Shown: positions 1,205-44,564, numbered from the stretch's first letter. The stretch is 64,000 nt of DNA from Eledone cirrhosa (GCA_964016885.1 OZ024740.1:396924001-396988000), one strand, 5' to 3'. A program made the numbers and translations. Notes: generated by a model not told the origin, from the letters alone.

Positions 1205-1552
1205 TATAAATAAAGTAGAAGGGATATTTAATTTGTTGGAAATTCAACAAATATAAATGTTTATAACTGATTCAGCGCACTCGACAAGTTTCTGGAGTAA
1301 ATATTCAATGATATTAAATAAATGGAAACTATATTTATAAAACCATATTTATTCAAGGGTACCAAAAACTTTGGTACGCTTTCATCAGATAAAAATCAAA
1401 GAGTGTTTTATAAATTTTGACATAGCCAAGGAAACATACCTTATCAGTTTAATTTTCCAAGGAAAGCGTACCAAAGTTTTTGGTACCCTTGAAATATATA
1501 ATAGAATAAATATGGTTTTATAAATATAGTTTCCATTTATTTAATATCATTG
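1205..1552 (-). mobile_element. PLE-type non-autonomous fold-back element in (TA)n with a split hammerhead
   Basis: Inverted arms 1306-1383 / 1462-1552, (TA)n on both sides. CTGATGA on - strand at 1382-1388, GAAA-tata-TA on + strand at 1491-1500. Confidence 0.6.
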
Positions 1553-1741
1553 TATATATATATATATATATATATCCAGGTGAACCTACAGTAACTCCAA
1601 GTTACACTCCCTGTATGTATATATAACTGGTGAGATGTATATATAAGTGAGAGCTGCTAGTGCACATACTTAAATATGGAATTATACGCATATATATATA
1701 TATGCAATTATATATATATGCATTTAAAAACAAAATCTGAT

Positions 1742-1945
1742 AAATTCACTTCATATTTATCATATATTTCTTGGTGTTAAAATTTCCGTCATTCTGCTTG
1801 TAACATCATGGTCACTGACATAGTTCCAGCAGGTCACAAACAGTGTGACGAGAATTTTACATGGCACTGTGCCAGTGTTTATATTGTAAACAGTACAAGG
1901 AAAATGTTGACACCAAGAAGTAAATAATAGATATAAAGTGAATTT
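1742..1945. mobile_element. Small MITE-like element with imperfect ~45-bp terminal inverted repeats
   Basis: aaattcactt...ttcttggtgttaa (1742-1780) vs ttgacaccaagaa...aagtgaattt (1907-1945). Confidence 0.4.
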
Positions 1946-2298
1946 AATAGTGCTTATGTGTTTTCAATGGCTAAGATGATTCTTTTATGATGTAATAGCA
2001 TTAGTTTCAACAAGTGGTGTCAGACAAAATCTGTAAAGTATTTGTTGATAGGAGGGGCGGCCAGTCGTATAAAGCTTGCCAAACAAAGGGTGGGAAGAAC
2101 TCTTCAGTTGTGTAAAAAATATGACAATCTCCTTGATGCTGGTGCCCTGATAAAAGGGACTCAGTAGCACAGGAATGTACGTAAGTGAGATGCAGGCTCC
2201 CAACCCAAACAATTCTGCTTGAGAACTGACTTGATCTGTGAAGACTCATACAACCCTTCCTAACAGGGAAGGTGGTTGTTAAATGATGATGATGATGA

Positions 2299-2333
<35 letters not shown>

Positions 2334-2352
2334 TCGGAACTCAATTTATTTT

Positions 2353-2441
2353 GTATTACAATTGTTTCCCCGGCAAACAGCTTGAGGTTCGATTTGTGTG
2401 TGGATCTAACCTGACTCTGGATTCACAGGTTCCTCAGACAC
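2353..2441 (-). ncRNA. Second (inverted) copy of the expanded hammerhead candidate
   Basis: Reverse complement reads gtgt-CTGAGGA-acctg...ccggg-GAAA-caattg-TA-atac; stem I kept with a G.U pair. Confidence 0.55.
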
Positions 2442-3023
2442 GTCTAGTGGTTTTGGAGAAAATCCTCTTTGTCTCGAGTTCCAACGTTACAAGTCTGTAT
2501 CATCTGCCTTCATTCTGTTTGCGCGTCCTTAGATTGGTCACTGGTTAGTGACATCATCATAGTTCTGATCACTGGAAGCAGCCCACTGACCACAAGGGTG
2601 TGAGCTGTCACTCACCCCGAGTCCCATCAGCAAAATTACTGCTGTGTGTACCCAAACTCACTACATGCAAAGACACTGATGGACACATACAGAATAGCTT
2701 GCATGCTTGCGTTCACACATGTACCCACAGAACCATATACACATATATATGTACACACACACATACACACAAATATACACATACATGCACACACACAGGC
2801 ACACACACGTGTATATACACATATATACACCCACCCACACACTCACATGCCTGTATAAATACATACACACACACACACACACGCATACACATACATACAT
2901 ATACACGCACACATATATAACCAGTGACCAATCTAAGGACGTGCAAACAGAATGAAGGCAGATGATACAGACTTGTAACGTTGGAACCCGGGATAAAGAG
3001 GATTTGCTCTGAAACCACTAGAC

Positions 3024-3112
3024 GTGTCTGAGGAACCTGTCAATCCAGAGTCAGGTTAGATCCACACACAGATCGAACCCCGAGCTGTTTGCCGGGGAAA
3101 CAATTGTAACAC
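3024..3112 (+). ncRNA. Type I hammerhead ribozyme candidate with expanded stem II domain
   Basis: gtgt-CTGAGGA(3028-3034)...GAAA(3097-3100)-caattg-TA-acac. Stem I gtgt/acac, palindromic stem III ACAATTGT. Confidence 0.6.
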
Positions 3113-3251
3113 AAAATAAATTGAGTTCTGATGCATCACTGATTCTTTGTTTTCCATTTCATCATACTCTGCTCCGTAGGAGCCTAGAGTGCTCAACTGG
3201 CATACCGCCTACGGACGCATCTTAGCTACCATAAGACATATATATATATAT

Positions 3252-3445
3252 ATAGGAAAAGAGTCAGGACTCTGATAGTGGAGCTCAAACCGTTTCGACA
3301 GCTAGTTCGGATCTAGCTGTCGAAACGGCTGGAGCACAGCCATCGAGGTCCTGACTCTTTTCCTATTACCCACTCTACTACCCTAAGTATCAAGTACTAT
3401 GGTGCATTATGGTCCACCTGGCTTCTTACAACACACTTTCTTCAT
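3252..3445 (+). mobile_element. Short fold-back element in (TA)n
   Basis: Hairpin 3252-3366 (ataggaaaagagtcaggac...gtcctgactcttttcctat) with apex gacagctag-ttcggat-ctagctgtc followed by GAAACGG. (TA)n flanks. Confidence 0.55.
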
Positions 3446-3559
3446 TATATATATATATATGTTGGGAAGTCCACAGATCAGGTTAATTTAGCATGTTTAG
3501 GTGCAGGGTATGTATGTATGTGCCTACGTATGTATGTATATGAATATACATATATATAT

Positions 3560-4335
3560 ATCATCATCATCATCGCTTAACGTTCATCTTCCACGCTAGC
3601 ATGGATTAGATGGTTTTGTTCCATTTGATGTGGGAATGGTTGGGAGACCATGTCTCGCTGCCACAGAAGCGTCTCAGGCAGGTTTGTTACAGCTGGATGC
3701 CCTTCCTAACACCAACCACATTTATAGTGCAGACTGGGAGCCTTTTAACCGTGTCTCCTACATGGCCACCTCACAGAGTGGACTGTTGTGTCATCGACAC
3801 AGATGACGAAATGGGAGAGGAAGGATGGGTAGGGTGTGGGGGTGAGGTGTACATTGAGTTAAGAGGTGCCTACTGACTGTAGGTTTGTATGCAATGGCAG
3901 TCGGGTCTTCTGTACAACTGCATGGCGCCAAAGGTCTCGATCCAGTGTCATTGTCTTAGAGAGGTGTAGGTGGGCAAGGTCAGTTTTTATCACCTCGTCC
4001 CAGGTTTTTCTTGGTCTACCCACTGCGCAGCTTCCATCAATTTTCATTGCCCTGCACTTTTTTATACAGCTATCATCCTTCATACGCAATCTCCTCTCCA
4101 GAACACAACATTTGATATCTCTTACGCTTAGTCTCCCTCTTAGTTTGTTTATGCTTCACCTTTCACACACATTACTATTATACATCCATCGGAGCATGCA
4201 AGCTTCATTTCTTTCTAATCTACGCAGGTCTTCAGCACACAATGCCCAAGTCTCACTACCATGTAATATCGCTGTTTGTATACATGCATCATACAATCTG
4301 CCTTTCATTTGTAGAGAAAAACCCCTTGTGGCCAA
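3560..4335 (-). mobile_element. RTE LINE 3' fragment (RT C-terminus, 3' UTR, (ATG)n tail)
   Basis: ATRGFSLQMKGRLYDACIQTAILHGSETW and MRMKDDSCIKKC..GRPRKTWDE closely match the 28172-29566 ORF. Confidence 0.9.
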
Positions 4336-4903
4336 CATATATATATATATATGCATATTGTATATATGTACAGATCAATGATCATCTGTAGTAAGAGGTG
4401 AAATGGCCAAGTAAGTAATTTATTGAACTTAGAAATTTCTAATGTGTGAAGTAAAGCAATGCTTATACTACCATATAAGCCAGTGATTCAACATAATGCC
4501 TTACCTGAGTTTCAACAGAATAAATTGCAAATATTTACACTGGAATATGAAGGAGGATATAACTAAATATTTAGGAGTTTGTTTTGTAATTTTTCCTTCT
4601 TTGTACACAGGGTAAGATGTTTACACTTTTACAAGAAAAGCAACAACAGAAAATGTTATTATGATAGAGAATATTTTTCTGTTAGAATAAAAATTGTATT
4701 TCTTTATATACAGCAAAAAGGAAATAGTTGAAGAAAATATTGTGTTTAGCCCACATGCACTACGACGACAATGCTGCTTTGATAACAAAATTCCCAATTG
4801 AAGAATGATCTTACTTGCTTTATCAATACTGGAGTTATAGTGCAGTTAGAACTGTGATGGGAATTCTTGGTATTATTTTTGCTGTTTATTACACATCCTT
4901 TAA

Positions 4904-5110
4904 TCATTTAGCATTTAAACCAGCTGTATCTGGCCAGAATTCTCTCACCTCTTTCTGTTCAAACCAGCCATAACAGGCCACACATATCGACATTAAAATA
5001 TTGTTCTCAAAATAAATAATATCAAAATCTTATAGATTCGAGATTATGTGAGATAAAGCCTTTACTGCAAAAATACATAGTATATATAGAGTAATGTAAA
5101 TGCTGAAGGA
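4904..5110. mobile_element. piggyBac-type MITE (degenerate copy)
   Basis: TTAA at 4900-4903 and 5111-5114; homologous to 5210-5430. Confidence 0.75.
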
Positions 5111-5209
5111 TTAAAAGATATCTTATAATTATTTAGTTAACATTGAAAGAGAAAGTAAATATCAGTGTTTGAAACATCTGACAATTTCTAGGTCAGTAGC
5201 TCTGCTTAA

Positions 5210-5430
5210 CCCTTTAGCATTTAAACCAGCCATATCCGGCCAGAATTCTCACACCGCTTTCTGTTCAAACTGGCTGTAATAGGCTGCTCATACTGATGTT
5301 AAGGTATTGTTGTCAAAATAAATAATATCAAAATCTCATAGATTCAATATTATGTGAGATAATTATGTTAAATAAAGTGTTTCCCATGAAAATACAATAG
5401 TATCTATAGAATAATGTAAATACTAAAGGG
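5210..5430. mobile_element. piggyBac-type MITE
   Basis: TTAA|CCCTTTAGCATTTA ... TAAATACTAAAGGG|TTAA: 14-bp TIR with one mismatch, and TTAA target duplication. Confidence 0.85.
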
Positions 5431-5630
5431 TTAAGTACTGACTTGGTCTCTGAAGACAGATCTAAAATCATGATGAAGATGACAATGCTGATGATGTAGT
5501 AGTAGTTAGAAAAACACTACAATATTTTCTGAGTGGCTTTGTTGTGGTAAGAAATTAGAGTTAGAAAATAATCCAATGTTTGAATAAGGAAGTGTTAGTT
5601 GCTATAGCTATTTATCTCTGTCTTTTTCAG

Positions 5631-5656
5631 GCTATCATTGCCTCTGGTTTCACTGA
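5631..5656 (+). CDS. Candidate terminal coding exon (G-YHCLWFH*)
   Basis: Acceptor tttatctctgtctttttcag|GC. A phase-1 join to 987-1056 gives GYHCLWFH then TGA TGA. No homology recognised. Confidence 0.3.
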
Positions 5657-6625
5657 TGAGAGCAAAAATTCCAGAGAGCCTTTTGCAGACACCTCGTAAA
5701 GTCATATGAAAATTGGCTTTTATCTTAACACTAGGCAAACATTATTAAGTGTTACTATATGGTCAAGCATACTTATGTTGCCATCATGTCTGGAGAGGAT
5801 AATATTGTATAAATTAGAACAAATAATGTACAGGACTAGAATACAGTAAGCTATCCAATCCAGAACAGTTATCTCTGTAGTGAGCTTTTACTGTTAATCA
5901 AATGAAAAAACATAATTTGATTATGAGAAAGACAAACCAGATGAAAGGAGAACATCTAGATAATGTTCAAATTCTTTTAGAAATGGCTACATTTTTAATT
6001 GGTTGACTTTTATCCACAATAATCAATACTGTCTCAATACAGTCTATACTTTCAAGTATAGACTGTCATTCTCAGTTTAGTATAATCTTTTTTACTGATT
6101 AGTCAGGGAAGGAATGGCAGCATTCTTAGCATGTTATCTTTTAGGGATTCTAACACTGCTAAGAAGAAGTTAGGATATCATCATCAAGCTGGAGATCTGT
6201 CCTAAATGATTGCAACAGATTGAACTTCACAAGAGACAACCATGATCCATGTGTTGATGACAGGTTAAATCTGTCACCCATGAACTCAAAGCTGGAAAAA
6301 AATACCAAAAGGTATCACACATTCAACACTCAAACAATTCCTTTATTTTATCCACATTGTAAAGATGAAAGGCACAGTTGACATAGGTATGATGTGAACT
6401 CATAGCTTATTAGCTGGAAAAAATACTGCAAAGCATTTTGTCCTGCATTCTAACAACTCTGTCAATGTCCATATGTAAACTCATATTCTATGTTACATAA
6501 ATATGAATGTTTATCAAAGCACTAGTGCTCTTGGCAAAGGCATGCTATTAAAACTTTCCACTAGTTCCCTGTGAATTTGATTCTTCATATCAGTATAAAT
6601 AACTCATTATATTATGCTACTGCTG

Positions 6626-6797: not shown

Positions 6798-6814
6798 TAT
6801 ATTATGCTGCTGCT

Positions 6815-9624: not shown

Positions 9625-9992
9625 TTAAGATAGCAAATGATGAAACTGCATTTCTGACCACAAGAGTGACAGGGTAGTATCTGTGATTTCAGGCAGAACA
9701 AATGCCACTAGAACAAACTTCAAAGAGCAATGTTTTTTTGTTGTTGCTTTTCTCACCATTGATTATATCACTCTCACCACACCCTCTCTACAACAGACTT
9801 CCAATCTTATCTCGACTTCACCTCCTCCCATCCAACCCACACCAAACACTCCATAGCCTATTCCCAATTCCTCCGTCTTCGTCGACTGTAACCAGGACGA
9901 CGATTTCAAAACCCATTCCCTTCGCATGGCTTCCTACTTCATCCAGCGTGGATATCCCCCCACCTTGATCCAAGCTGCTCTCACCCACACCC

Positions 9993-10649
9993 GTGAAACA
10001 TACCACACCACAGCCCTCTCACCTCACCCCCGCCCTCCTAACACCTGTGTTCCTTTCCCTCTCACCTACCACCCCATCACTCCGGCGACATATCCTCCGT
10101 TCCTTCCGTATCCTCTCTTCTGACCCCAACACTTCTCACATTTTTCCAAACCCACCCATTACTGCTTTTAAGTGCGCTGGCAACCTCCGCGACCTCCTGG
10201 TTCACAATTCCTTTTCGTCCTTTCCCACGCCTCCACCTGGCTCTCATCCTTGTTCCCGTTCCAACACTTGTCCCTTTATTTCCACCCTCACCACTCTTAC
10301 AGGCCCTAACGGGTCTTTCCGTATACGCTATTCCTTCACCTGCACATCCACTTACATTGTCTATGCCCTCTGGTGTTCCCTTTGTGGGTCTTTATATATC
10401 GGACAAACGGGACGCCATATGGCAGACCATTTTGCCGAAGATTTGACTCGGGACATCAGACTCGGTTTGGATACTGCTGTTGCCCGTCATTTCTGTTCTC
10501 CTGGTCATTCTTCCCTACATGTTTCAGTCCTGGGTGTCCCTTTACATCATGGCTCACAGGCCTCATGCACCAGGACTGAACAAAGTCTGATTCACCATTT
10601 TGGGTCCTATTCCCCTCTTGGACTCAACTCACCTCCCCAATTTCTCTAA
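9993..10649 (+). pseudogene. PLE GIY-YIG endonuclease domain remnant
   Basis: FTCTSTYIVYALWCSLCGSLYIGQTGR...EQSLIHHFGSYSPLGLN; the upstream RT part is in another frame. Confidence 0.85.
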
Positions 10650-11078
10650 TACCCCGTTCATTATCACACCCCTAAATTCCTATTGCTTTCTCTTGATCAT
10701 TAGCAGCTTCTCTTACAACTAATACATGCTGATACACACCCTTATATTAACATACTTTTTCTCATAGCTTTGTACTTACATGCACACATACTCTTTTACT
10801 CACATATAATACACACACATTTCTTCTTAGCTTTGTACGAACATATAATCACACACACACTCAAACAAGTATAGCTCTTTTTACAAAACGTTTTTTCTTC
10901 CATTTCAGATAGACGCACTCCATCATCGACTTTTCTAAAAAACAAATCATACACAAAACGTCAGCACCAACGGTTTTGCAAGAGATGTCAACATGAATGG
11001 ACCTGTTATTTTTATCTAAGGACATTTTTTCCAATTCCATCACACCCGTCCTCTCAATCTATTTTATTTCCCATTCTT

Positions 11079-11114
11079 TCTTCTGATGAAGGACTAGCGT
11101 CCGAAACGTTAAGA
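11079..11114 (+). ncRNA. Minimal type I hammerhead ribozyme in the PLE 3' region
   Basis: tctt-CTGATGA-a-GGAC-tagc-GTCC-GAAA-CG-TT-aaga. All core residues present; stem I 4 bp, stem II 4 bp, palindromic ACGT stem III. Confidence 0.85.
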
Positions 11115-11228
11115 CCCTCTTCCTGCTATATCAAGTGTTAACCTAATATATACCGTCCATATAGTGTACCGATTGTGTTGTTATTTCTGTTTACCTTTTA
11201 CATACATATAAATGTATATATATATATA

Positions 11229-11548: not shown

Positions 11549-11705
11549 TATATATATATATATATATATCTTTAGGTTTGTTGGTTCACCACTGGATAGA
11601 ACTGGTCATTCCGTATGGTCAATCCTGGTGTAATATTGTGAAGAGTACTCAACGCAGTGCAGTTCACCCATCTTCGTTTGTGTAGTTGGTGGTGCGAATA
11701 TATAT

Positions 11706-12325
11706 ATATATATCAAAGGTATATAGAGTTAGAAACTCAAAATAGTCTATTACAATTAAATAGCTCAAGGAAAGAACATTTTTCGGGCCGTGTAATATAA
11801 TCTAATATAAAACAGAGATAAACACAGATATAAACATATATGTGTTCAAATTGTAAGGAACCGGATTCGCTAGGGTGAAAAAAATACTAACTATGAATAG
11901 GGTTTGCTAGACTCAATTTAAAAGAATAAGTTAAGAAAAAAATACAAACTGAAATTGTGATAACTATCAGACACCCAGACAGCTTTTGTTAATGCTGTTT
12001 CACAATTTTGTTATAGGGAATTACCAATTCTATTGCTTTTCAGTGGGTGTGAAATTAGTAAACCCTTCACTTCTAAGTATCTCAGAAGACTGAATGGTGT
12101 GCATATATAAAACAACGCACATAGTATCCAGAACCTAGCGTGTCTCTTAAAACGTATGCTACTAAAAATAGCAGCCAAGTTCGCTTGACATTTAAAGTAG
12201 CTCACCAAATTCAAGGAGCCGAATATATCAAAGGTATATATTGAGTTAGAAACTCTGGTCCCTTACGATTTGAACACATATGCATATATCTGTGTTTATC
12301 TCTCTTTTATATTCAATTATATATA
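11706..12325. mobile_element. (TA)n-embedded rearranged element with direct and inverted terminal duplications
   Basis: 11707-11738 repeated directly at 12223-12254; 11795-11863 repeated inverted at 12255-12322. Confidence 0.5.
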
Positions 12326-12354
12326 TATATATATATATACGCCCACACGTACAC

Positions 12355-18400: not shown

Positions 18401-20297
18401 CCATATGCCAGTAGACTATACTTATTCCACTTTACTTTCTTATACTTCCTAAATTCCTCCATATTTTTCCAAAATATATAATCTCATGGAAATTAAAAAA
18501 ATAAGGAAATTAAAAAGCAAAATGGAGAAACACGAAAAGTGAAAGTAAAGAAATCAATAATAGTAGATCAATAATATCATAGCTTAACCTCAATCATTCT
18601 AACTTCGATATCGTCTTTTATACTCTACAGCAATACATGATATCTGAAACACCAAGAGAAAGTGAAAAAGGAAATTATATACATACACATAAACATACAC
18701 CAACTAACACACACATGCATATACATAGGCCCTCTCGACCACACAGGAGTATACACAGACACTCATATATATACATACATATATAGAGAATCAAACATTA
18801 TTCCCACATTAAATCGTTTTTCTCACTATTTAACATATTAATGTGCACTCTGCTTTCCTTTTGGCTCGTATCTTAATGATACTGGCTTAATTAAAGCATT
18901 GAGTGAGTGGGAAAACGATTGAAGGTATTTCAGTCCTATCTGATGACTTCCTTTCAGTATTATTATTATTATATATATATAAGCATACATATATACACAA
19001 TATATATATATATACATATATTTAAATGCATACATATATATTTATGCATATACATACATATATATCATCATCAGTTTTATACAACACACTACATCAATAG
19101 CTCCTTTCTTGCAGCAAAAAAAAAAAAAAAAAATTAAGAGATAGTGAAAAAGTTATAGCTTTTGCTGGTATTTACCACAGTTGCTTTACAAGCAGCAACT
19201 AATCTTTTTAACCCAAATAAAAGGTATCAAAATCAAATTAATAATTGAATAAATAATAAAGTGTAAGCAATTAAAAACAAACAGAAAACTAACAATTTGC
19301 TTGATGGGTGGATCTTAGTGGGTGTGGGGAACCAATCTTGCTAATTAATAAAGTTGTTTTTTTTTTATCAGTATTCATAGGTTAGAGAAACTGTTATTAG
19401 TTATTTATCTTGATTTATTTTCACTGAGAGGTTAAACTGATCAAATACTGATTGTCAGATTAGAACTTCTTTCTTCCCCCTCTCATATGCTTCCCACATT
19501 CTTATTTATTACCGTGTTTCTTTCTCTAAGCCAACCTAGCTAGCAGACAACACATTAACGGAGTACATGCAGCTATAATGAAACAGTATTGGGGTGAATG
19601 GAAATGTGCTGTGCTGCAGACTTGTATAACCTGTGCCAGTATGATGATGATGATGATGGTGATGTCCGTAGTAATGATGATGATGGAGGTCATGGTTGTG
19701 TTGGTCATAATATAATTTTGGAAGAACACTGTCCATGTTTGATCAATACTGCTTGCAAAGTTTCCCATATGGTGGGAAAACTGTGAGCAATAGTACTAAA
19801 ATGTGCCAACTTGTCTTCAGAAAGAGATCAGCTGCATATTCGAGAGCATTAGCTTGGCAAATATACTTCAGCATACCACATACTTAAACAGACCGTGTAC
19901 TTAAACAAACCATATACTTAACCAGGGTGTAAACTTAAACATGCAATATTTGCCTAGTTAGCTTCTGAATGAGGAAGAAGGAAAATGAGATTGACTATGA
20001 GCCAGCATCTGTTGCTTTCTGGATTGAAACTGTCAGAAACAATCTTACTAATGGCTTAAAGATGGCTTTTGATGTGGTAACATTTTGTAGCTAATGATAA
20101 TCATGTATTTACTTTCTATCCTTGGCACAACAAACTATACACTTTTCTTTGTCCATCTCATGTGATTTGAAGGTAGTTGGATCCATATTTACACTAACAC
20201 AGGTCATAGTTGAATAAAAAATATCTATTTATAACTGGCTTTATCATTAGAAATGAGAAATGTAATAATGTTCAGAAAACATTATATATATATATAG

Positions 20298-20732: not shown

Positions 20733-21059
20733 AACACTGATTCTTTGTTCCCTAATTATTATATATATATATATTCAAAATGTATGGTAGATTTCGGAAT
20801 GAGGGTAACAAAGATGTTGGTGTGTCACCATATTTTGGGTCTCAAAACCTTTTACATGAATTTTGATCCAGTTTCTTCTTTCCACCATATGGGAAACTTT
20901 GCAAGCAGTACTAATTAAACACGGACAGTGTTCTTCCAAAATTATGTTATGACCACCACAGCCATGACCTCCACCATCATCATTTTTTGCATTGTTGTAG
21001 TCTTCAAATAACATACTGCTTTATACACTAACACAATGCTCCAGGCAAACTACAACACC

Positions 21060-21104
<45 letters not shown>

Positions 21105-21428
21105 GGAGGCACATGGCTTGCAATCGAATTGGGCTTGAATCGAAAGGTTGCGAGTTCAATTCTCAGACCGCGTGATGTGTTGTTTCCTTGAGCAAGCCAC
21201 TTTATTTCACATTGCTCCAGTTTACTCAGCTGTAAAAATGAGATGATAGGACTGGGGTCCCTATCATTCCACTGCAAAGTGGTTGTGGAGGTGCCATGGA
21301 AAAAAAAGCACTCACTGTAAATGAGGTTGGTGTTAGGAAGGGCATCCAGCTGTAGAAATCAAGCCAGAATCTGTTCCCGTCCCACCCTTACAAGTAGGGA
21401 AAAGCGGACGTAAAATGATGATGATGAT
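21105..21428 (+). mobile_element. Full-length SINE family A
   Basis: Closely matches 11229-11548 in opposite orientation; (ATG)n tail. Confidence 0.85.
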
Positions 21429-21446
21429 ATATATATATATATAAAT

Positions 21447-21627
21447 AAATGGCTTCTAGAAGACTAGAACTGCTTCATTTGTATGAAATCATCAGGACAT
21501 TCCTGATGATTTCATACGAATGAAACAGTTCTAGTCCTGTAGAAGTCATTTCTATATGAAAGAAATATGTATCTTCTCTACTAAATTATTGAGTACCTTC
21601 AGAAAACCATTCTTAATTATACATATA
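21447..21627 (+). mobile_element. Fold-back element with hammerhead core on both arms
   Basis: 51-bp arms 21447-21497 / 21501-21551 with a 3-nt loop. CTGATGA at 21503-21509, ttc-atac-gaa stem II, GAAA at 21522-21525. Confidence 0.6.
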
Positions 21628-26650: not shown

Positions 26651-27326
26651 TTAAGAGAGATTAGATTATAAGGTATTTTATTGTAAGGTATCCTATTATT
26701 TCTAAACACAAGACCAATATTTTATGGGAGAGTTTAAACACTATTCAACTGGTTTTAATTTCACTTAGAAAAGTAAAATTAAAAAACATACAATTGTTTC
26801 ATGAAAAAGAAAAAAAAAATTCATTATATAAACTTTTACATGTTATTTATAAAAGATACACAATAGGGGTAGTGTTGATCAACTTAATTTTACATGCTAT
26901 CTCTTACATAGTTCATTGTAGTGTATAGCCAGATATCTAAGTGGCCAAAACTGGGACAAATTAAAGATGTTTTGTGATTGAAAATTATACCACAAATATA
27001 ACACAAACATCACACTTGTCATATCCATGGATAAAACTTTCTGACATAAGTGTAAATGCACTCAACAATTCCAAACAATACATTTGCCAGAGAATGTATC
27101 AAAGCAAATAACTGCAGTGAATAACAGTTTGAATATGGTTACAAAAATGTTGAAGTTGAATACACTAATTGATATGCATTGAGCTTTGTGAGAACACAAA
27201 GAAGACAATGTAATGGCAGACTAAAGCTATGGTTATTAGTTAGCAACACAATTTCTGATGGGAAATTTACAAATCAACCAAAACTGTGTTTGTATTAAAC
27301 ATATATGCTATATTCAATAAAACATG

Positions 27327-29966
27327 ATTACTTGATGCTTTTGATAGTAAGGAAGAGCATATTACTTGATGCTTTTGATAGTAAGGAAGAGCAATTAGAG
27401 TCGTACAATAGAGAGGAACAGTGGGAATTCCTGAAAGCCAACCTGCTGAAGGCGAGAGATGAAATCTGTGGCAGGAGCAGACCTATAGGCAGGAGGAGAG
27501 TAACATGGTGGTGGAACAGTAAGGTGGAGGAGTCAATTAAGGCCAAAAAGCAGGCTTGGAAAGTATGGCGGGATGGGGGAAGTAGAGAAGACTATCAAGT
27601 GGCCAGGAGGGAAGCTAGGAGACAAGTGTACTTCGCAAGAAGGGAAGCAGAGGAAAGAAAGTTCAAGCATGTTCTACAACGCGAGGACCAAAAACGCGAG
27701 GTGTTCAGGATTGCTAGGCAATGTGTCAAGGAAAACCGTGATATTGTCGGGGAGAAGTGTGTCCTTAATGATGATGGTGTACTTGCCATCACTGACACTG
27801 ATAAGAAGGTAGCTTGGAAGTGTCACTACGAAAGGCTACTAAATGAGGAAAATAAATGGGAGAAAGACAGTCTCTCCCACATCGATCCAATAGAGGGACC
27901 AGCAGTGCAAGTTGAAGGTAGTATAATAAGTAAGGTGATCAAAGATATGAAGACAGACAAGGCGACTGGGCCTTCGGAAATAGTTGCTGAAATGCTGAAA
28001 GCATCTGGAACGGTGGGACACACTATGGTCACCCGGATAGTAAACCAAGTCATACAGAATGGAGTCGTTCCGAAGGACTGACGTAGCAACATCATCATTA
28101 ACTGCTACAAGGGTAAAGGAGATGCCCTAGATAGGGGAAACTGTAGAGGCATTAAATTAATTGACCAGGTCATGAAGGTCACAGAAAAAGTAATAGCGCA
28201 ACTAATCAGAGAGCGAATTGATCTAGATGAAATGCAGTTCAGGTTTGTGTCAGGTAAAAGTACAACAGACGCTCTTTTCATTGTACGACAACTACAGGAG
28301 AAGTACCTAGCTAAAAGTAAACCCCTATACTTAGCTTTTGTTGACTTGGAGAAAGCCTTTGACAGAGTACCCCGCTCCATTATCTGGTGGGCTCTTAGAA
28401 AACTAGGTGTTGATGAATGGCTTGTGAGAGCTATACAAGCCATGTATAAAGAAACAGTCAGCAAGGTTAGAATTAACAGCAAATATAGTGAAGAGTTTAG
28501 CGTAAAAGTTGGTGTTCATCAGGGCTCCGTCCTTAGCCCCCTACTATTTATTATTGCCCTTCAGGCTATAACAGAGGAGTTCAAGACCGGCTGCCCATGG
28601 GAACTCCTATACGCAGATGATCTAACGCTCATAGCTGAATCAATGGCTGAACTAGAGAAGCAATTCCAAACATGGAAGCATGGCCTAGAATCAAAAGGCC
28701 TTAAAATTAACCTGTCTAAGACTAAAGTTCTAGTTTGTAGGAAGGAAAATAGGGCACTGGTCCCATCTGGGAAATGGCCATGCTCAGTGTGTAGGAAAGG
28801 AGTAGGCAGAAACTCCATTTTATGTCCCAAATGCAAAGTATGGGTGCATAAAAGATGTAGTGAGATCACAGGTAAGCTAACTAAGAATATAGATTTTATA
28901 TGTGGCCAGTGCTCAGGTGCAATAAGTAGCAGCAAGTGCCCACAGAATACTAGCTCATTCCATTGCATAGATAGTTCTATAGAAATAGTGGACACCTTCC
29001 GTTACCTGGGTGACAAAATCAGCAGTGGTGGAGGGTGCACTGAAAGTACAGTAGCTAGAGTCAGAACGGGATGGAAAAAGTTCAGAGAGCTTATACCACT
29101 ATTAGCCGCTAAAGGGTTCTCCCTAAAAATGAAAGGCAGGCTGTATGATACCTGCATACGAACAGCAATGTTACATGGCAGTGAGACTTTGGAATTGTGT
29201 GCAGAGGATATACGCAGACTGGAGAGGAATGAAGCTTGCATTCTCTGCTGGATGTGTAATAGTAATATACGTGAACGGCAAAGCATAAACGAACTAAGGG
29301 AGAAATTAGGAATAAGAGGAATCAGATGTTGTTTACTCGAGAGAAGACTACGTTGGTACGGTCACGTGATGCGCATGAAAGACGACAGCTGTATAAAAAA
29401 GTGCAGGGTGATAAAAATAGACGGTAGCCACAGAGTAGGCAGACCCAGAAAAACCTGGGACGACTTGATAAATTCCGACCTCACACACTTACATCTCTCC
29501 AAGACAATGTCACTGGACCGAGATCTTTGGCGCTACGCAGTAATACAGAAGACCCGCCTTGCCTAAGTACAAAGCGAAACCTAGTCAGTAGGCACCTCTT
29601 AACAAAAAAACAAAAAAAAAAAAAATACACACCCATCCCACTACCCCCACCCCATCCACACCACCCTTTTCGATGTAAAGTTATGTTGATACCACAACAT
29701 CCAGTCCGAAATAAATGAGGTCGTGTAGGTGTGACGACAAAAAAACACACAGTCCACGCTGTAATGTGGCCGTGTAGGTAACACGGTAAAACCTCCCAGT
29801 CCACACTGTAAACGTGGTTGGTGTTAGGAAGGGCATCCAGCCGTAGAAAACCCGCCAGACAGTCCTATACAAGCAAGACAACCAATCTTGCCTCAAGTGG
29901 GAAAATTCCCGTCCAAACCCATGCAAGCGTGGAAGATGGACGTTAAACGATGATGATCATGATGAT
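27327..29966 (+). mobile_element. RTE-clade LINE, 5'-truncated, about 2.6 kb
   Basis: One continuous frame 27305-29566 with a single TGA at 28079 (KDW->KD*). RT motifs FVDLEKAFDRV, GVHQGSVLSP, LLYADDL, FRYLG; GRPRKTW; (GAT)n tail. Confidence 0.95.
28172..29566 (+). pseudogene. RTE reverse transcriptase with embedded PHD-like zinc finger
   Basis: YADD catalytic motif; CSVC..CPKC..WVHKRC..CGQC before FRYLG. Confidence 0.9.
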
Positions 29967-30390: not shown

Positions 30391-32026
30391 GCAATGAAAA
30401 TTTATATTCTAGAATATGAAAGGGAATTATTCAAAGAAAAATCCTATTAAGTCCCAAATCAAAATCCAGTTTAAATCTTAATTAGAACAAGTTTTGGAAA
30501 TCACTGTTTAAACAAGGCATTCTTCCTACAACACCATACTGGTACTCATGTGTTGTAAGCTATTGGAGTGAATTCTGAGAGCCTTCTCTCATAAAAACCC
30601 AACAGTGATGCTGACATGAAAAACATTAGTTCTAAGATATGTAGATTACAACTCAACTTCCCCAATACTTCTAAACAAATATATTTACTAGAAAGGCTAC
30701 AACAATTAGAAGTACAGCTTCTAATTAAAAAACTGTAGTTATATTTACATTAAATTTATCTTTATCATCATCATTATCATTCACTTTTCCATGCTTGCAC
30801 AGGCTGGATGAATATTTTCAAAGACAGCCTTTCCTCACTTGATTACATTCCTTCATCATCTCGTTTGTGAGGTTAAGCTCTCATCTCTTCTGCTCAGTTT
30901 TCCTTGGTCTTCCTCTTCTGCAGCTTCCATCCACTGGGAATTCTTAGCACTTCTCTCTTGCACACTGAATCTGATTCTCTTATGTTTAGTTTTTCTTTCA
31001 GCTCATCCATGTTTTGTCATTCATACACACAGAATTAGATGTGTGCAAATTTTTAGGTGTTAGAACATAAGATTTTTACAATTTTTTCATTAAAGAATTT
31101 GTGGTATTTATGGTTAGGAGGAGAATGTATATATAAATTTCTGCAATTCTGTCACAACACATAAAGAGAGAGGAGTAGTTTGACTACCTTATACTACTCC
31201 TCTTTCTTTACATCTGCTGCCTGTGTGAATGTATGCGTGTGTAAAACGAAGGAAGGGGTTGGTGAAAAAACTATAGCAAAATAGCAGCTGACATTCCATT
31301 TGTTATGTTGTGTATATGTGTATGTGTGAATATATGTGTGTGTGTGTGTTTGTGTGAATGTATGTCTCAGTGTGTATTTTTGTAAGTATGTCTGTGTTTG
31401 CACATTTATATTTATATACTCATATATATAAATGTATGCATATGCACATGCACATATGCACACACACACACACGTATGCGTCAGCATGTTGAAAAAAATC
31501 CTAGTGTTTATATAATAGTTAAAATAATTCTTTTTATTTTATGGGGTGGTAATTAGTAAATAGAAAGACAAATTAAACCAAATCACATTTCATCTAGTTC
31601 TATGCCCATTTATACCATTCCTTTTAAAGGTTTCATGATATGGTGAACTCTCATGACAAACACCTTCACTAGAAGATAATGAAAAACATCTTACAAGATT
31701 CTTTAACATATCATGGTAATGTATTAAGAGTTATATCTTTATTAGTTTTTTTTGTATAAACTAAAGTTATCTCCATTTAAAAAAGCTAAATATTTTTAAG
31801 CACTGTCTAACAGTTATTTTATATCCTCAATTCGTTAAAAGGTTATGTAAACCATAATATAAATGGTCATTAGATTGTAGTAGAAAGATTTTGTAGTAGA
31901 AAGGATCCATTATCTCTATAAAACCACTATTAATAAATGGAAACTTTTAGGACATCCTACACTCACACATACATACATACATACATATATATACACACAC
32001 GCATATATATATATATATATATATAT

Positions 32027-33125
32027 AAGTAGTTCCACAACAGTTAATTCACCATTGCTCTCGGAAATGGTGAATTAACTTTTGTGGAACTACTTCTACC
32101 AAACTCGTTCCATGGACTTAGTGCTCTACTACTATGCATATGAAGCGAAGCAGTGTTAGTAGTTATTGTTAAGTGAAAATAACACAAAATAGATGGTTTA
32201 CTTTTATAACACAATACTGGTGTGTATGAATATAACAAGACACTAGGTTGTGTATATAACGTTTAATTAACAAGTTGCAGTTATGTAGAACAGTATAGTT
32301 GACATGTCAATGAGTAGTAGTAGATGAAAGAATGAAGTAAAGTTATTTGTTACCATTTTGAAGTTAGCTCGCAAGAGGCCATGTTAGGGTTGCCAGACGA
32401 ACGCGCCTGGCCGAAGGGTCAGGCAGGTTAGAAGGCCAGGAGCCGAAAGGCAAATGAGAGAGTGAGATCGCTCTGAGTATCCCTTTTATAGGGTCTTAAG
32501 ATGGAAGTGACAAAAAGGGTTCTGCCACCCCAACGGGAAGTAACTCTAGCTACTTCCTGTCTAGAGAGCGTTAATCTATTGGTGATGTGAGTGTCACAAC
32601 AAGGGAGGCAACTCTTGCTACACTTTTGATATCAAATTTACTTCACTTAATAAATGAACAACGAATTGGTTACTACAAATTATAACGGTTAAAGATGTTT
32701 TTAGTTATTACTTTGTTATGCTGGTTTAGTCTGTGGCCAGAGAAGATAAGAAGTCTGTAGACTAGGGGAGAGAGAGCGAAAGGTCTGTAGCAGTCTGTAG
32801 GCCTCTGTAGAGAGAGAGTAAGGGTCTGTAGCAGTCTGTAGACCCCTGTATAGCCCAAGGGGCCTGTAGTTAGAGGTGAATATTTTACATTACTATTTTC
32901 TCGTGTACTGCTCCGATCTGTCTTGTTTTGCTTGGACTGATACAGGCTATTTATATGTGTCGCTTCCTGTTTTCTGCCTCGAGGGATCATCGCCCACGCA
33001 TAAACTTGTTTACCTCAAAAAGGAGGTGACCCAGAATCTGACCTTTCTTAGTCACCCAAGGTTCAAGGTGTGGACAAGATGTGGACAGATTTTGCTACAG
33101 ATATAATCCACCAGTGTTCTACTTA
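32027..33125. mobile_element. Unclassified 1.1-kb non-coding insertion in (TA)n with terminal hairpin
   Basis: (TA)n both sides, ends taagtag/ctactta, hairpin 32028-32095, internal TCTGTAG repeats, higher GC than flanks. Confidence 0.55.
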
Positions 33126-33354
33126 TATATATATATATATAATCTAACTTGGTCACTTATTTTAAATTAATCCTTTGGACTCACACTCACACTGAAATGT
33201 TCCATACATAATATTTCTTAACACAAAAATTGTTGTCATAAATTATTAAAGACTAATTTGTAGATAAGTATCAATAGAAAAAGATTTGATATGTGTACTA
33301 AATTTAGAATAGTTGACTGCATCTGATAATAATTGTTTATTAATGGACATATAA

Positions 33355-39103: not shown

Positions 39104-39374
39104 TATATATATATTTTTGTGTGTGTATATAACTTTCAGTTACTGGTAGTTCATCAGTTTGAGAATTCAATGCTCTTACGTGGATCTAATTGTCAATGTA
39201 GGATTCACTGTTTGTGCTGTCATCAGTTTTGGTACCCATAACAAGCAGAGCGTTAATAATAAGTAAATGGGAATGAAGTATCAGTTTAGCATCATATATA
39301 TATTTTATTCACTTGTGGTACATGTTTTTGAATTGATCAGCTCAAGGTATGATTTGTCATGATGAAGATATTAT

Positions 39375-39657
39375 TGGTGCCATAATGAAAAGCACCCAGT
39401 CCACTCTATGGAGTGGTAGTGATGGTGCCACAAGAAAAGCACCAAGTTCACTCAGTAAAGTATTAGAGATGGTGCTATAAGAAAAGCTTCCAGTACACAC
39501 TTTAATGTGGTTAATGTTAGGAAGGATATACAGCCATAGAAAACCATACCCCAAGCAGATCTGTATAAGCAAGACATGGTTACCTGTCCTGGCTAGCCTC
39601 ATAATGCCTCTAACCCATACAAGCATGGACAATTGATGTTAAACAGTGATGATGATG
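39375..39657 (+). mobile_element. RTE-tail-type fragment with 3 internal repeats
   Basis: Same unit and tail as 38690-39103. Confidence 0.65.
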
Positions 39658-42489
39658 TACACTTACATACATTTTCCTCCCCTTAATATTATATATAACA
39701 TCTATTTCACTATATTATATGTGTGACATATTAAAATGATTGCTGTAAAAGAGTGGACTATCTGTATTGATGTTTATTGACCTTTAATTTGTCTAAGAAG
39801 CTTAATATCTCTTCATTTTATTTGCATATTAGACAAGATTATTTATCATAGTTCAGTTTTCTTTTGATTGATGTCTCTTAAGAAGACTCTTATTACTCTT
39901 AACAGTAGTTACAGTGAGAAAACTCAAATAAAACTGACCACCTATACACCAGTTGCCAGTATCATAACATTGGTAAATGTCTATAAGATTTAACAGACTC
40001 ATTACGATACCCTTTCTAAAAGGAGTCTTATAAGCACAAATTCTACATGACAATCTGCCTCATACAAGCTGGAGTAAAGAAATAGAGGTTTTCCCTTTAT
40101 CAATAGATAAGTTGTGACTTACTTGTATTGCTTACAATCTCAATAGTTTTATGTATGACATACTTCACTAGTAACAGTCTGAACCTATGATCACTTCGTA
40201 TTAAAAAACTTCCCTTTGACTACAACCATTATTATATATTACTTACACAGAACAATGTAATGGGAAAGTAAAATCCACAAGTAAATCTAAAGTTCAATTG
40301 CTTAAAACTCGTGTTTTAACCCCACATACATGAAAGGAGAAAGGAGGTGCAGAATTTGTAAGGTTTCGGCTAAATAACCAAACTCTGCTTGCTTCAAATT
40401 ATCTGACTGATCATGCTTTTTACTCCAACCTACAAATCATCATTAATCTTAATAGTCTGAAAAGATACTGTAAAGCTTCTCTCTTAACTATCTTATTTAA
40501 AAAATGATAAGAAAGCTCCTCCCAAGAGTTGACTGATTGATGATTGACAGGTCATTTGGATAATCCAACTAAAACTAAACTCACCATAAAATAAAAAAAA
40601 CAGAAAATATGGGAATGTGAAGTAGACAAAAAATATGATAATATTGAAATATATACCCCTTACTAATGCTTCGATTCAACCTAAGGATATTTGAAGTCAA
40701 AGTGTCTATGTGAGAAATAAATTGAAATGTCAGAATCAATTGATTGAAACTGTTCAATACATAATATAACATGTTATCCCCACTAGCACTACTACCGTGA
40801 TCAAAATGATTATTATGATTATCATATATTTAGCCTATATTTTTCTAAATTGGACAGAGCTGCATTGCAGCCTTTTACCATATGTCTAGAATCTGCATCA
40901 TTACACATAAGAGAGCCAACATTTTGAAAAGAGCCAAAAATCTGCAAGGAATAGCAACCAAACTTCCCTCAAACCATACCCTACCATCTTAGAAAAAAAC
41001 AAGGCAAGATGTATTGGGTAATATCATATACTGAGCATGAAAAAAAAAATTATTATCATAGGTCTCCTGAATCAGAGATGTCCAGAACAACATATCTCCA
41101 AAACATTCCTTAGGTTAACTCTCTACCTTAAGTATCTTCCACCAAGTCAAAGCAATTGTACTCCTAGTATATATTATCAATTTAGATTATATATCCAAAC
41201 CAGCACAGCTGTATCTACAATATATATCTACCAATATTGAGGATGCTTGGCTGCTTTCTCAAGTCACTTTCATTCAGCCTTTCTCATAATTTAATATTGC
41301 ACACAACCAATAGAATAGATCAATTCAGAAAATTCATGTTAATGTATTTTTTTTTGTCAGAATCTATTATGTTTCCTGTCAAAATGAAAACTGTTGAAGA
41401 AGTTAAGGAATATTTGACATATTTATTGATTTCTCACTGTTTAACACTGCATTATTGATTAATTTGCTATTGATGAAACAGTTTCTCTTTCAGTTACAGG
41501 CATTTAAATAAGAGAAAATCACTAGAAGAATATGAAGTTTTACAGTGATAGTGTTTATTTGGATGCTAAAAGTCACTATTGTTGCATTCGCCTGGATAAC
41601 TGAAAGAAAGAGCCTCAAAGTCAAATACTTTACCATTCAAATTCAGTTCATCAATTGATAATTAAACTAATTACAATTAGACTAATTAAATTTAGAAAAT
41701 TGAAAAATAGGTAATTTGGTACCCATACCCTTTCTAAAAGCATAAGTAAATGGTCACATGGAAATTACCACAATGATAAGCTAATAATCATGCCAAGCAA
41801 AAGATAGTATTTTTGATGTTCTTGTTTAGTCTTAGATAAGCAGACCTATGCTCAATTATGATCACCTTATATTTCTCTTTAGCATTGTTTATCAGACTAT
41901 ATTATTCAATGTGTCCCTCCCTTTCAACACCATAGAGAATAATTTGAGAGAGATTTGGATGTTATTTCTAGCAGATCAACCGACCATGTAGAGGCTCTCT
42001 CATTAGCTTAAAAGTATTTTTGTTTGTTACTTAGGTAGTATATATTGTGCCAATAAATATATTTCATACTTAATCTTTTACAGATACTTCAGATTTGATA
42101 ACCATTCTTTCACTTTTTATATTGAAGTACAAATAAGCAATATCAAAGAAAAAATACATATGATCCCCTTGAAACAATTTACTTACTTATTCCAGTATAC
42201 AAAACAGAAATGCATTCTAAACCAAAAGTGCAATCAACACATGTTTACTGTAAACCATACAATTAAACAACAACAAGAAGAAACATTCCTGTGTGAAAAT
42301 TATCACTCATCAAAGACCTTTCTGAAGTTAAATAATCAAGCATATTCCACTCAAAAAAAGAGATTTACTTCCTTCTTTCATGGTTCTGATAAAAGTACCA
42401 GATTGGTGACCACCAAAAAGCACTGCAATATGGCTAGACACAACAAAGGCAATTTTACTACACCATCCTTTATGCAAGTTAACAAAGAA

Positions 42490-43030
42490 TGTGTTTAGGC
42501 CTTAGGTAGAGTGTATTGCTCGAAAAATATATTGCAGTCTCCATCTCATGTTGTAAAAACTGGTGATGGGCCAGCAACCTGTCCTGGTGTAGGATGGACA
42601 TAAAAAAGATTGTATATCCCCCAAATAATTGGAACCTGGAACATTACAATCCTTACAGGTAAGAAGCAAGAACTAGAGGTGGAGGCTAGATGCTACTGGC
42701 TAGATATAGTCAAGGTTTCCCCAACAAAGTTCTGTGGCTCTGGTACTGTAGATTTGGATGGAAGATGGAAACTCTACTATTCAGGAGTGGCACCAGAAAT
42801 TACTGCAGGAGTGACGATACATACAAGCCCCTGGCTGTCAGAATGTGTTATGGATTGAATCCCATTAGGAGGGAGGATTTACCTCTTGAAGCTTAGGGTG
42901 AAAGATAGGTTTCTGTGGGTGGTGTAAGTTTATGTACCAAACAAGGAGTCTGAATACAGATCCTTCCTTGATGAAGTCACTGCATCTTAAATATAGTTAA
43001 GATCTCCCTAATGGGAGACTTCAATGTACA
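42490..43030 (+). mobile_element. RTE-clade LINE 5' fragment (APE endonuclease)
   Basis: IGTWNITILTGK..ELEVE..LDIV..WKLYYSG..AGV, VYVPN, MGDFNVH with stops. Confidence 0.75.
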
Positions 43031-43971
43031 TGAAGCTCTATAAGGAACAAATTCCTCTTCTAGCTCACAGTTTCGTGAAATAGAAGCTTACAAGAAAGAA
43101 TTAATATCAGTAAAACATGTATTTTACTAACAAAAAATACAGATTTACACAAGAACATATCAAATAAGATATATTGTCTAGATTGGAGAATTAATGTTAT
43201 CAAACTAAGTCTTTACCAATATACATTTCATTCTATCTACCAATCTTTTTTCCTGTTTAGCTATCACACACACACACAAATACACTATCTCACACTCATG
43301 TATACATATCAGGGATGTGACATCATATTCAAGGTAAGCAGTAGGCATAATATGGTGAATTGTCAACAAATGTTTTTTATCATTATGAGACAATATCTAA
43401 ATATATTTTGACTCTAGATATTTACTTACACACACACACCCACATGAACTCATATGCATACACATATACATAACTATATTTACATATATCAGAATAAAAA
43501 GAAGTGGAGTCGGTTGTACTGACATATGCATGTAAACTAACATAAACGCGATTATGTATAGAACATCGTAGATAATCATATTTGTATAGTTGTATTAACA
43601 TACAAACACAATACAATTTCTTTTACTATTTTACTGGGTTCAGTAATTGTACTACAGTCATGCTGGGACACTGCTTTCATATTATTTTAAGTTTGATACT
43701 TATTTCATCGATCTTAATTTGTCAAACTGTTAAGTTACAGGCGATAAATAAATACTACAGACTTTAAGCTGTGATGAACACAAACATGGGCAGAGATATA
43801 CATACATACATCCAAGCCAAAATCAGTTCTGTGTGAGCAAAACCAGGTCCTCTGGCCTGGATGTCTCAATGGAACAGCATGCTTGTATGGAAAATGGACA
43901 TTAAACAATGATGATGATGATAATGATACATACATACATACACACATGTATACATATATAAACTCATATTA

Positions 43972-44055
43972 GCACCTGAAGAAAGGTCGCTATTTTGATG
44001 TCTCTTATTTTCTGAAGATATAGTAAAATTTGAACCTTGAAACTTTGGGTAGCAT
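43972..44055 (+). ncRNA. Degenerate hammerhead candidate in a short (TA)n-bounded segment
   Basis: CTGAAGA(43976)-aaggt...acctt-GAAA(44039)-c tttgg g-TA. Stem II closes with 5 bp; stem I is mismatched. Confidence 0.4.
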
Positions 44056-44085
44056 CTTTGTTCTGTGTATGAACATTAATATATA

Positions 44086-44122
<37 letters not shown>

Positions 44123-44282
44123 CAGATTTCATTTATGAAATGCTCACTCATAAGGCATTAGTCACTCTGAAGCTATAGTAGGAGTATGTCTAATGATATA
44201 CGGTAGTTTTGATGCCTATGTACATGGGTTGATTAACCTCAATTACATATGGAGCTGTTGGCTGGTTTAGCCTGAAAATAGA

Positions 44283-44564
44283 ATTAAAGTTTTCACTCTG
44301 ACATAGCTGTACACATATATATATATGTATTTTGTATATCTAATGGTATATGGTATGTTTACATATAAACATTTGAAAGCCTTTCACTATGAATTTTGGA
44401 AGCTAATGGCTAGCGCCATCTAGTGGATTGGCGTTAGCCATCAGCTTCCAAAATTCATAGCGAAAGGCTTTCAAATGTTTATTTGTAAACATACCATATA
44501 TCATTAGATATACAAAATACACATACTTATATGTATACAGCTATGTTAGAGTGAAAACTTTAAT
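44283..44564. repeat. Long inverted repeat (136-bp arms, 10-nt loop)
   Basis: 44283-44418 vs 44429-44564, ending in (TA)n. Confidence 0.95.
44412..44426 (-). promoter_or_regulatory. CTCF consensus motif
   Basis: AGCGCCATCTAGTGG is the reverse complement of CCACTAGATGGCGCT, matching the core CCACYAGRKGGCRC. Confidence 0.5.

What the first reader, a model, noticed from the sequence alone, without database searches (positions are those of the whole stretch)
1205..44564. Recurrent class of short fold-back, (TA)n-embedded, ribozyme-bearing insertions
Seen: at least seven segments that share little sequence (1205-1552, 2329-3238, 3252-3445, 11706-12325, 21447-21627, 32027-33125, 44283-44564) sit in or against (TA)n tracts and contain an inverted duplication. 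Four have whole or partial HHR cores. Inference: truncated or non-autonomous PLE derivatives (retrozyme-like) mobilised by TA-microsatellite-targeting PLEs. If transcribed, they would yield long dsRNA, relevant to the high A-to-I editing known in coleoids.
Basis: partly seen in the sequence, partly recalled or inferred. Interest (0 to 1): 0.7.

Follow-up and report, generated by a model that had tools for sequence, protein, structure and literature searches.

The report
Folded-back Penelope retrotransposon insertion stumps
The seven mirror-image stretches are real copies of very common repeat families lodged in TA microsatellites, and they are most likely head-to-head stumps left when Penelope-type jumping genes insert, a layout already published; whether they feed RNA editing is untested.

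Summary
Observation confirmed. All seven inverted duplications exist, with arms 83-97% alike in six, and each belongs to a family with thousands of candidates genome-wide. They share one layout: (TA)n, an inverted copy ending at a fixed point P, a variable junction, the main copy, a 60-100 nt one-sided tail, (TA)n. In 800 kb sampled at even steps, 79 of 170 inverted repeats abut (TA)n (null 7.7), about one per 11 kb, and hammerhead motifs are enriched (11 of 72, background 1.5). Longer relatives of segments 3 and 6 run into Hydra-type Penelope endonuclease sequence. Segments 4 and 7 come from non-coding tandem units (517 and 341 nt), which is retrozyme-like. A young coding Penelope family makes the same layout at kilobase scale. 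Junctions differ from copy to copy, so the hairpins are likely independent insertion products, not a self-copying class. The layout is published (Craig 2021; Frangieh 2024), and this scan found it before in other genomes. Additions here: ends pair as one P plus one tail (57 of 68; 12 of 13), and a covarying bulged hairpin sits in the tail. No window copy passes my full hammerhead descriptor. Expression and editing were not testable.

The parts
1213..1553 (-). s1 fold-back: main copy on minus (about 1461 to 1306, hammerhead 5' core 1388-1382, its GAAA half deleted), point P at 1306, 93-nt tail 1305-1213 with bulged hairpin at 1298-1276; inverted copy 1462-1553; (TA)n 1177-1200 and 1553-1574
   Evidence: complete minimal hammerhead in 21 of 25 family loci
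2329..3237 (+). s2 fold-back: long inverted copy 2329-2917, main copy 2918-3136, tail to 3237 with bulged hairpin 3166-3194; hammerhead cores CTGAGGA at 3028 (+) and 2437 (-), GAAA 3097, with an enlarged domain II; (TA)n 2301-2330 and 3238-3253
3252..3445 (+). s3 fold-back: inverted copy 3252-3305, loop 3306-3312, main copy 3313-3366 (3' half of a U3-A8 hammerhead), 79-nt tail 3367-3445; 3' end of a Hydra-type PLE lineage; (TA)n 3238-3253 and 3446-3459
   Evidence: fold z = -7.99
11714..12317 (-). s4: one 517-nt non-coding unit on minus (hammerhead 12049-11972, core mutated), a 33-nt end of the preceding tandem unit, inverted copy 12254-12317, P about 11795, tail 11794-11714; (TA)n 11698-11713 and 12318-12339
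   Evidence: period 506-524 in 14 of 25 loci; hammerhead in 13 of 25
21443..21624 (+). s5 fold-back: inverted copy 21443-21497, junction 21498-21501, main copy 21502-21556 with hammerhead core at 21503, shortened tail with bulged hairpin; (TA)n 21427-21442
32027..32140 (+). s6 fold-back, left part: inverted copy 32027-32056, main copy 32066-32095, start of tail with bulged hairpin; 3' end of a Hydra-type PLE; (TA)n 32003-32026
32141..33099 (.). Later, unrelated insert in s6: 959 nt, TG...CA, flanked by CATA/GATA (solo-LTR-like, inferred), with a nested 420-nt repeat at 32205-32623
33100..33124 (+). s6 tail end, abutting (TA)n 33124-33141
   Evidence: matches the family 3' end
44186..44562 (-). 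s7 fold-back of a 341-nt non-coding unit: inverted copy 44424-44562 ending at P in (TA)n 44563-44576; main copy 44423-44283 continuing as family sequence to about 44186; the family's U3-A8 hammerhead lies outside this copy
9761..11214 (+). 5'-truncated coding PLE of another family (end of RT, GIY-YIG frame 9969-10649, hammerhead core 11083-11105) ending in (TA)n 11215-11228; same kind of machinery, not the parent of the seven

Best explanation
Each segment is a head-to-head pair of 3' ends from a high-copy repeat family lodged in (TA)n, likely made in one insertion in which a Penelope-like (PLE) RT-endonuclease cuts both strands and primes two cDNAs that are then joined. Shown: the outer end of the inverted copy sits at a fixed family point P; the other end runs 60-100 nt further (tail); junctions vary; longer relatives of s3 and s6 reach Hydra-type endonuclease sequence; s4 and s7 are non-coding tandem units; a coding PLE makes the same layout. 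Inferred: P and the tail end are the two internal RT start sites known for PLEs; one enzyme dimer uses one site at each DNA end; the short cDNAs are joined at a few complementary bases; the non-coding units borrow a PLE enzyme; the bulged hairpin between the two sites is a binding or start signal. The window copies are decayed and probably inert.
For: Layout shared across families (tail 55-125 nt in 41 of 72, null 4.7). Ends pair one P with one tail: 57 of 68 unselected fold-backs, 10 P/P, 1 tail/tail; 27 of 30 s3 pattern loci have the tail on exactly one side, none on both; 12 of 13 scorable inverted pairs of a young coding PLE (about p=0.001 if ends were chosen independently at the 15:20 tail:P ratio, my arithmetic). 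L300 holds Hydra-type EN C-terminus, 1.2-kb UTR, U3-A8 hammerhead, P, tail, (TA)18, and an inverted copy ending at P. 175 exact genome matches of an intact 5' core upstream of s3's stem II, control 0. s6 follows a GIY-YIG-like frame in L403/L203. Hammerheads in 11 of 72 fold-backs, against 1.5 (genomic) and 0.1 (shuffled). Literature: inverted copy, one-sided tail and (TA)n (Craig 2021); both strands extended and two RT start sites bounding the tail (Frangieh 2024).
Against: No coding parent was reached for s1, s2 or s5, nor for s3's exact subfamily in 8 loci; the s3 link is through a sister subfamily with a homologous UTR. Tails (60-100 nt) are longer than the published 30-40 nt. In vitro, Frangieh saw no strand difference in start site, so strict pairing is not shown biochemically. 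61 of 72 sampled fold-backs lack a full hammerhead. The P/tail calls rest on short probes, and some P/P calls are false anchors. Pfam found only a weak RT hit in one PLE frame (E 6e-4) and none in the others, so clade labels rest on motifs read by eye. s7's second end is rearranged and shows no clean tail.
Confidence: 0.85

Rival explanations
1. The fold-backs are themselves non-autonomous master elements (hairpin retrozymes) that are transcribed and re-inserted as units.
For: The top 30 hits for s3 and s5 share nearly the same junction; both arms carry the same subfamily variants; s4 and s7 are non-coding hammerhead units.
Against: The shared junctions are query bias: among unselected copies the 32 s3-type and 20 s5-type junctions are nearly all different. 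Longer, hammerhead-intact s3 copies exist. The recurrent s3 junction matches a TAG microhomology in the parent.
Confidence: 0.07
2. PLE origin, but by one primer: a single cDNA snaps back on a hammerhead stem or switches template and copies itself.
For: s3, s5 and several s6 junctions cluster in or beside hammerhead stems and short palindromes.
Against: Snap-back would copy back through the tail, or stop at random; instead the inverted copy ends at the fixed point P, which is also a free-standing 3' end of single copies. Either arm can be the longer one (loop orientation 16:11). The coding family folds back at kilobase distances from any hammerhead.
Confidence: 0.05
3. TA-targeting MITEs or foldback DNA transposons (MuTAnT-like).
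For: Short, non-coding, inverted repeats, TA targets, high copy number; TA-targeting Mutator elements exist (PMC4486113, search listing only).
Against: The repeats are not terminal (one-sided tail), 5' truncation varies, tandem units and hammerheads occur, and relatives continue into GIY-YIG frames.
Confidence: 0.02
4. Sequencing or assembly fold-back artefacts at TA tracts.
For: No contig spanned s1 when four runs were laid on it; no long reads were available.
Against: Arms have diverged, ends fall at family-specific points in hundreds of loci, and a later insertion interrupts s6.
Confidence: 0.01

Closest known systems
Insertion units of EN+ Penelope-like elements, above all the Hydra clade (Craig et al. 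2021, PMC8557442; Hydra-1_Obim in its supplement)
   Same: Inverted 5'-truncated copy beside the main copy, one-sided tail, (TA)n targets, hammerhead near the 3' end, partial tandems; CxxC/E and N/CxH motifs in the EN of L300 and L402.
   Different: Tails are 60-100 nt rather than 30-40. Five probes from these families had no match in that supplement (line breaks could hide matches). Copy numbers reach 10^4-10^5 per family group.
Poseidon_Ac (PAc) of Anolis carolinensis (Frangieh et al. 2024, PMC11167929)
   Same: Cuts and extends both strands of AT-rich DNA; two internal RT start sites bound the tail; hammerhead cleavage is not needed for insertion.
   Different: Different clade. The paper reports no strand difference in start site, whereas the ends here pair as one P plus one tail. 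Its start site is an AC-rich stem-loop; here a bulged ACTC/GAGT hairpin lies between the ends in five of the seven families.
Minimal PLE hammerheads (Cervera and De la Pena 2014, PMC4209133)
   Same: Minimal type I motifs with palindromic helix III, U3-A8 core variants, and pairs 100-700 bp apart on opposite strands.
   Different: s2 has an enlarged domain II; s3, s4 and s5 have a real stem III; C3-G8 and U3-A8 cores coexist in one family.
Animal non-LTR retrozymes (Cervera and De la Pena 2020, PMC7229834; Li et al. 2026, bioRxiv 10.64898/2026.07.22.740005)
   Same: Non-coding tandem units with a type I hammerhead, proposed to be PLE-mobilised: s7 (341 nt), s4 (517 nt), and arrays in L285 (310 nt) and L290 (556 nt).
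   Different: s4 exceeds the 170-400 nt range; s1, s2, s3, s5 and s6 are not tandem units; circRNA expression is untested; the word 'inverted' does not occur in PMC7229834.

Membership tests
EN+ Penelope-like element insertion unit | 3' end continuous with an RT/GIY-YIG frame | tested here: inconclusive
   Met for s6 and for the s3 lineage via a sister subfamily; not reached for s1, s2, s5; s4 and s7 are non-coding units.
EN+ Penelope-like element insertion unit | Inverted, 5'-truncated copy adjacent to the main copy | tested here: met
   All seven.
EN+ Penelope-like element insertion unit | Tail at one end only | tested here: met
   57 of 68, 27 of 30, 12 of 13. Tails are longer than the published 30-40 nt; s7 is unclear.
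EN+ Penelope-like element insertion unit | Type I hammerhead in the pLTR | tested here: met
   Family level, by descriptor or by eye, in all seven families; no window copy passes the full descriptor.
EN+ Penelope-like element insertion unit | (TA)n insertion preference | tested here: met
Hydra clade | CxCX5C linker, no CCHH, CxxC and CxH around the conserved E and N | tested here: inconclusive
   L300 shows CxxC-E and N-CxH; L403's linker is degenerate and aligns to L402 (33%, E 2e-20), which has CxCX5C. Read by eye on fragments.
Hydra clade | RT motifs (RWK, DKT) and placement in an RT tree | not tested
   No full RT linked to the seven families was in hand.
Non-LTR retrozyme | Non-coding tandem unit of about 170-400 nt with a type I hammerhead | tested here: inconclusive
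   Met by s7 (341 nt, L087, L067); s4 is tandem but 517 nt; not met by s1, s2, s3, s5, s6.
Non-LTR retrozyme | Self-cleavage and expression as linear and circular RNA | not testable with these tools
   No RNA holder was listed.
MITE / foldback DNA transposon | Terminal inverted repeats at both ends and fixed length | tested here: not met
   One-sided tail and variable junctions.

The most novel reading that the evidence does not exclude
PLE insertion is a coordinated two-ended reaction in which one enzyme dimer primes from P at one DNA end and from the tail end at the other, guided by a conserved bulged RNA hairpin between the two sites. That one rule has seeded this genome with some 10^5 near-perfect intronic hairpins, about 3% of its DNA, which would be its main source of long dsRNA for ADAR editing.
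Probability: 0.35. Interest if true: 0.65.

Novelty: new member of a known kind. Interest (0 to 1): 0.32.

Why it matters
The layout is known, but how PLEs make inverted copies and tails is called undefined in Craig 2021. The near-strict pairing of one P end with one tail end, seen in many families and in a young coding family with intact 1,000-1,239-aa frames, turns two-ended priming into a direct test, and names an enzyme and a candidate RNA signal for it. At roughly one fold-back per 11 kb, these stumps also matter for repeat annotation, where they look like MITEs or miRNA hairpins, and as a candidate pool of dsRNA in an animal group known for heavy editing. That last link is untested.

Tried and rejected
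Rfam scan: only microsatellite-driven miRNA matches, no hammerhead. My first prediction of s3's linear parent found 40 matches; the 30 examined were fold-back variants or truncated copies; a corrected pattern worked. Fold-back masters for s3 and s5: my early reading, dropped after removing query bias. Loop flip-flop as proof of masters: dropped, because independent two-ended events predict it too. Hammerhead cleavage as the maker of the junction: dropped, because junctions lie up- or downstream of the cleavage site, not at it. The window's own coding PLE (9761-11214) as parent: different 3' end, no tail motif. Upstream walks for s1 and s5 reached only AT-rich or low-complexity DNA broken by other insertions. 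Pfam and NCBIfam did not name the PLE fragments. Sequencing runs: no RNA holder listed. Four runs laid on s1 gave repeat depth but no spanning piece, so junction support from reads is open. Literature searches listed no paper on cephalopod PLE fold-backs, on P/tail pairing counts or on the tail hairpin; the library lacks most subscription papers and Repbase, so this is not proof of absence.

Full report
Setting. The window is G000:C1:396924001-396988000 in a 3.0-Gb animal assembly. Bases from about 44.8 kb on are a simple satellite.

1. Observation. All seven inverted duplications are present, with arm identities of 83-97% in six and 78/78 plus a deletion in s1. Each is a repeat family: first-look candidates were s1 3430, s2 4213, s3 3244, s4 3889, s5 2542, s6 1622, s7 2663 (only 40 were scored per search). 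To avoid query bias I took 80 evenly spaced 10-kb stretches from 19 large contigs, 60 of them on C1-C4. Of 170 inverted repeats, 79 abut (TA)>=4, against a null mean of 7.7. Merged, there are 72 fold-backs covering 3.3% of bases. That extrapolates to roughly 2.7 x 10^5 per genome, an order-of-magnitude figure. Eleven of 72 hold a full type I hammerhead by my descriptor (genomic background 1.5, maximum 5; shuffles 0.1), and 41 of 72 have a 55-125 nt tail (null 4.7). The sample holds 90 hammerhead matches against 1 and 5 in two shuffles; 26 of the 90 come from two tandem arrays.

2. Anatomy. Family alignments give one layout: (TA)n, inverted copy whose outer end lies at a fixed point P, junction, main copy, P, tail, (TA)n. 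Every family has a type I hammerhead upstream of P. In s1 it is minimal with a palindromic TATATA loop (21 of 25 loci). In s4 it is canonical (13 of 25). In s2 it has an enlarged domain II (10 of 25). In s5, s6 and s7 it was read by eye; s7 has a U3-A8 core. For s3, 175 exact matches (control 0) place an intact 5' core upstream of stem II. Of the 100 matches listed, my count by eye is 86 U3-A8, 7 C3-G8, 5 U3-G8, 1 C3-A8 and 1 false match; the C3-G8 copies may be one subfamily.

3. Origin. s6: L203/L403 run from a decayed GIY-YIG-like frame through a short UTR into the s6 hammerhead, P and tail. s3: L300 has a Hydra-type EN C-terminus, a 1.2-kb UTR, a U3-A8 hammerhead, P, tail and (TA)18, with an inverted copy ending at P in (TA)33; L270 is similar. 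These are a sister subfamily. The window's exact subfamily has homologous UTR and long fold-backs, but no EN was seen in 8 loci. s4 is a 517-nt tandem unit (14 of 25 loci) and s7 a 341-nt unit (L087, L067), both without a long frame. No parent was reached for s1, s2 or s5. Independently, a young coding PLE (22,219 candidates, top 150 at 96-98% identity, frames up to 1,239 aa) makes the same structure. Of 14 loci with inverted copies, 13 were scorable: 12 had one P end and one 60-nt tail end, one had two P ends, none had two tails. Seven of the 14 were picked for having inverted RT hits, which does not bias end type. Its mini fold-backs occur five times in the random sample.

4. Mechanism. Shown: end pairing (57 P/tail, 10 P/P, 1 tail/tail of 68 unselected fold-backs; 27 of 30 one-sided and 0 two-sided for s3 pattern loci, which include two near-duplicate pairs); junctions that differ from copy to copy; either arm may be the longer (s2). 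From the literature: a PLE protein cuts and extends both strands of AT-rich DNA, starts at two internal sites that bound the tail, is predicted to be a dimer, and does not need hammerhead cleavage (PMC11167929). Inferred: both DNA ends prime, one at each site, and the truncated cDNAs join at short complementarity. I put the PLE origin at 0.9 or more and this two-ended route at about 0.7-0.8. A motif ACTC-[stem-loop]-bulge-GAGT-RCT lies in the tail of s1, s2, s3, s5 and s6, and in 17 of 72 sampled fold-backs (background 0.3). Its inner stem pairs at 3 bp or more in 11 of 13 representatives, 2.3 expected from shuffles, with different sequences; the 13 are not all independent lineages, and the window's own s2 copy is one of the two failures. 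It is absent from s4, s7 and the two coding families checked. A role as enzyme-binding or start signal is a guess.

5. Comparison. Craig 2021 (PMC8557442; passages, sections 11 and 15, supplement searched by terms) describes inverted truncated copies, one-sided 30-40 bp tails and (TA)n targeting, and lists octopus Hydra and Naiad families. Cervera 2014 (PMC4209133; parts 1-2 of 4) reports opposite-strand hammerhead pairs 100-700 bp apart and U3-A8 cores. Frangieh 2024: parts 1-2 of 4 read. Cervera 2020 (PMC7229834; passages) and Li 2026 (part 1 of 5; its supplements were not seen) define retrozymes. PMC8967140 (passages) notes Penelope expansions in coleoids. The editing preprint 10.1101/2020.01.19.911685 (passages) links editing to intramolecular dsRNA but does not mention Penelope. 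Other supplements were not read and could already hold these families. Earlier AI notes report the same class in other genomes, none in this one; they are not independent support.

6. Editing. If transcribed, the arms would pair (s3 fold z = -7.99). A candidate exon at 987-1057 suggests the region is intronic, but it is unverified. No RNA data were available, so the link stays open.

7. Verdict. Real and abundant, and explained as PLE insertion products of a published kind. The families are probably undescribed. The end-pairing counts and the tail hairpin are modest additions that make the mechanism testable. Interest 0.32.

Noticed in passing
L285:3850-9330 (G000:C3, near 55.00 Mb): A 310-nt hammerhead unit in tandem, 12 copies plus 5 inverted, both ends in (TA)n and 34 nt apart in the unit; 99% identical arrays in L151 and L396. 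A young retrozyme-like family with PLE-type ends.
   Followed up: partly
L290: A 556-nt tandem array with a hammerhead in each unit, at least 9 matches.
   Followed up: no
L268:902-2446, L395:1324-5040: A very young coding PLE family (96-98% aa identity among the top 150 of 22,219 candidates; frames to 1,239 aa); a good enzyme source for in vitro work.
   Followed up: partly
window 32141-33099: A TG...CA insert with 4-nt flanks, solo-LTR-like, holding a 420-nt repeat that elsewhere occurs as direct pairs 1.6-1.9 kb apart.
   Followed up: partly
window 43970-44090: Another probable PLE 3' end with a hammerhead-like core at about 43976, ending at (TA)n 44091; resembles the L259 motif by eye.
   Followed up: no
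window 1741-1946: An older, 65%-identical inverted repeat with no match in my other loci.
   Followed up: partly
window 19673-19778 and 20879-20984: A 106-nt inverted pair, 92% identical, 1.1 kb apart, not abutting TA.
   Followed up: no
window 27299-29566: A LINE fragment with RT and a PHD-finger-like region.
   Followed up: no
window 44790-64000: About 19 kb of a 15-nt-unit satellite that gives long spurious open frames.
   Followed up: no
window 987-1057: A candidate 23-codon exon with a polypyrimidine tract and a consensus donor site; no Pfam match.
   Followed up: partly
window 3028-3108 and L275, L202, L267: The s2-type hammerhead carries a 60-nt branched domain II, with stem I varying in step among relatives.
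   Followed up: partly
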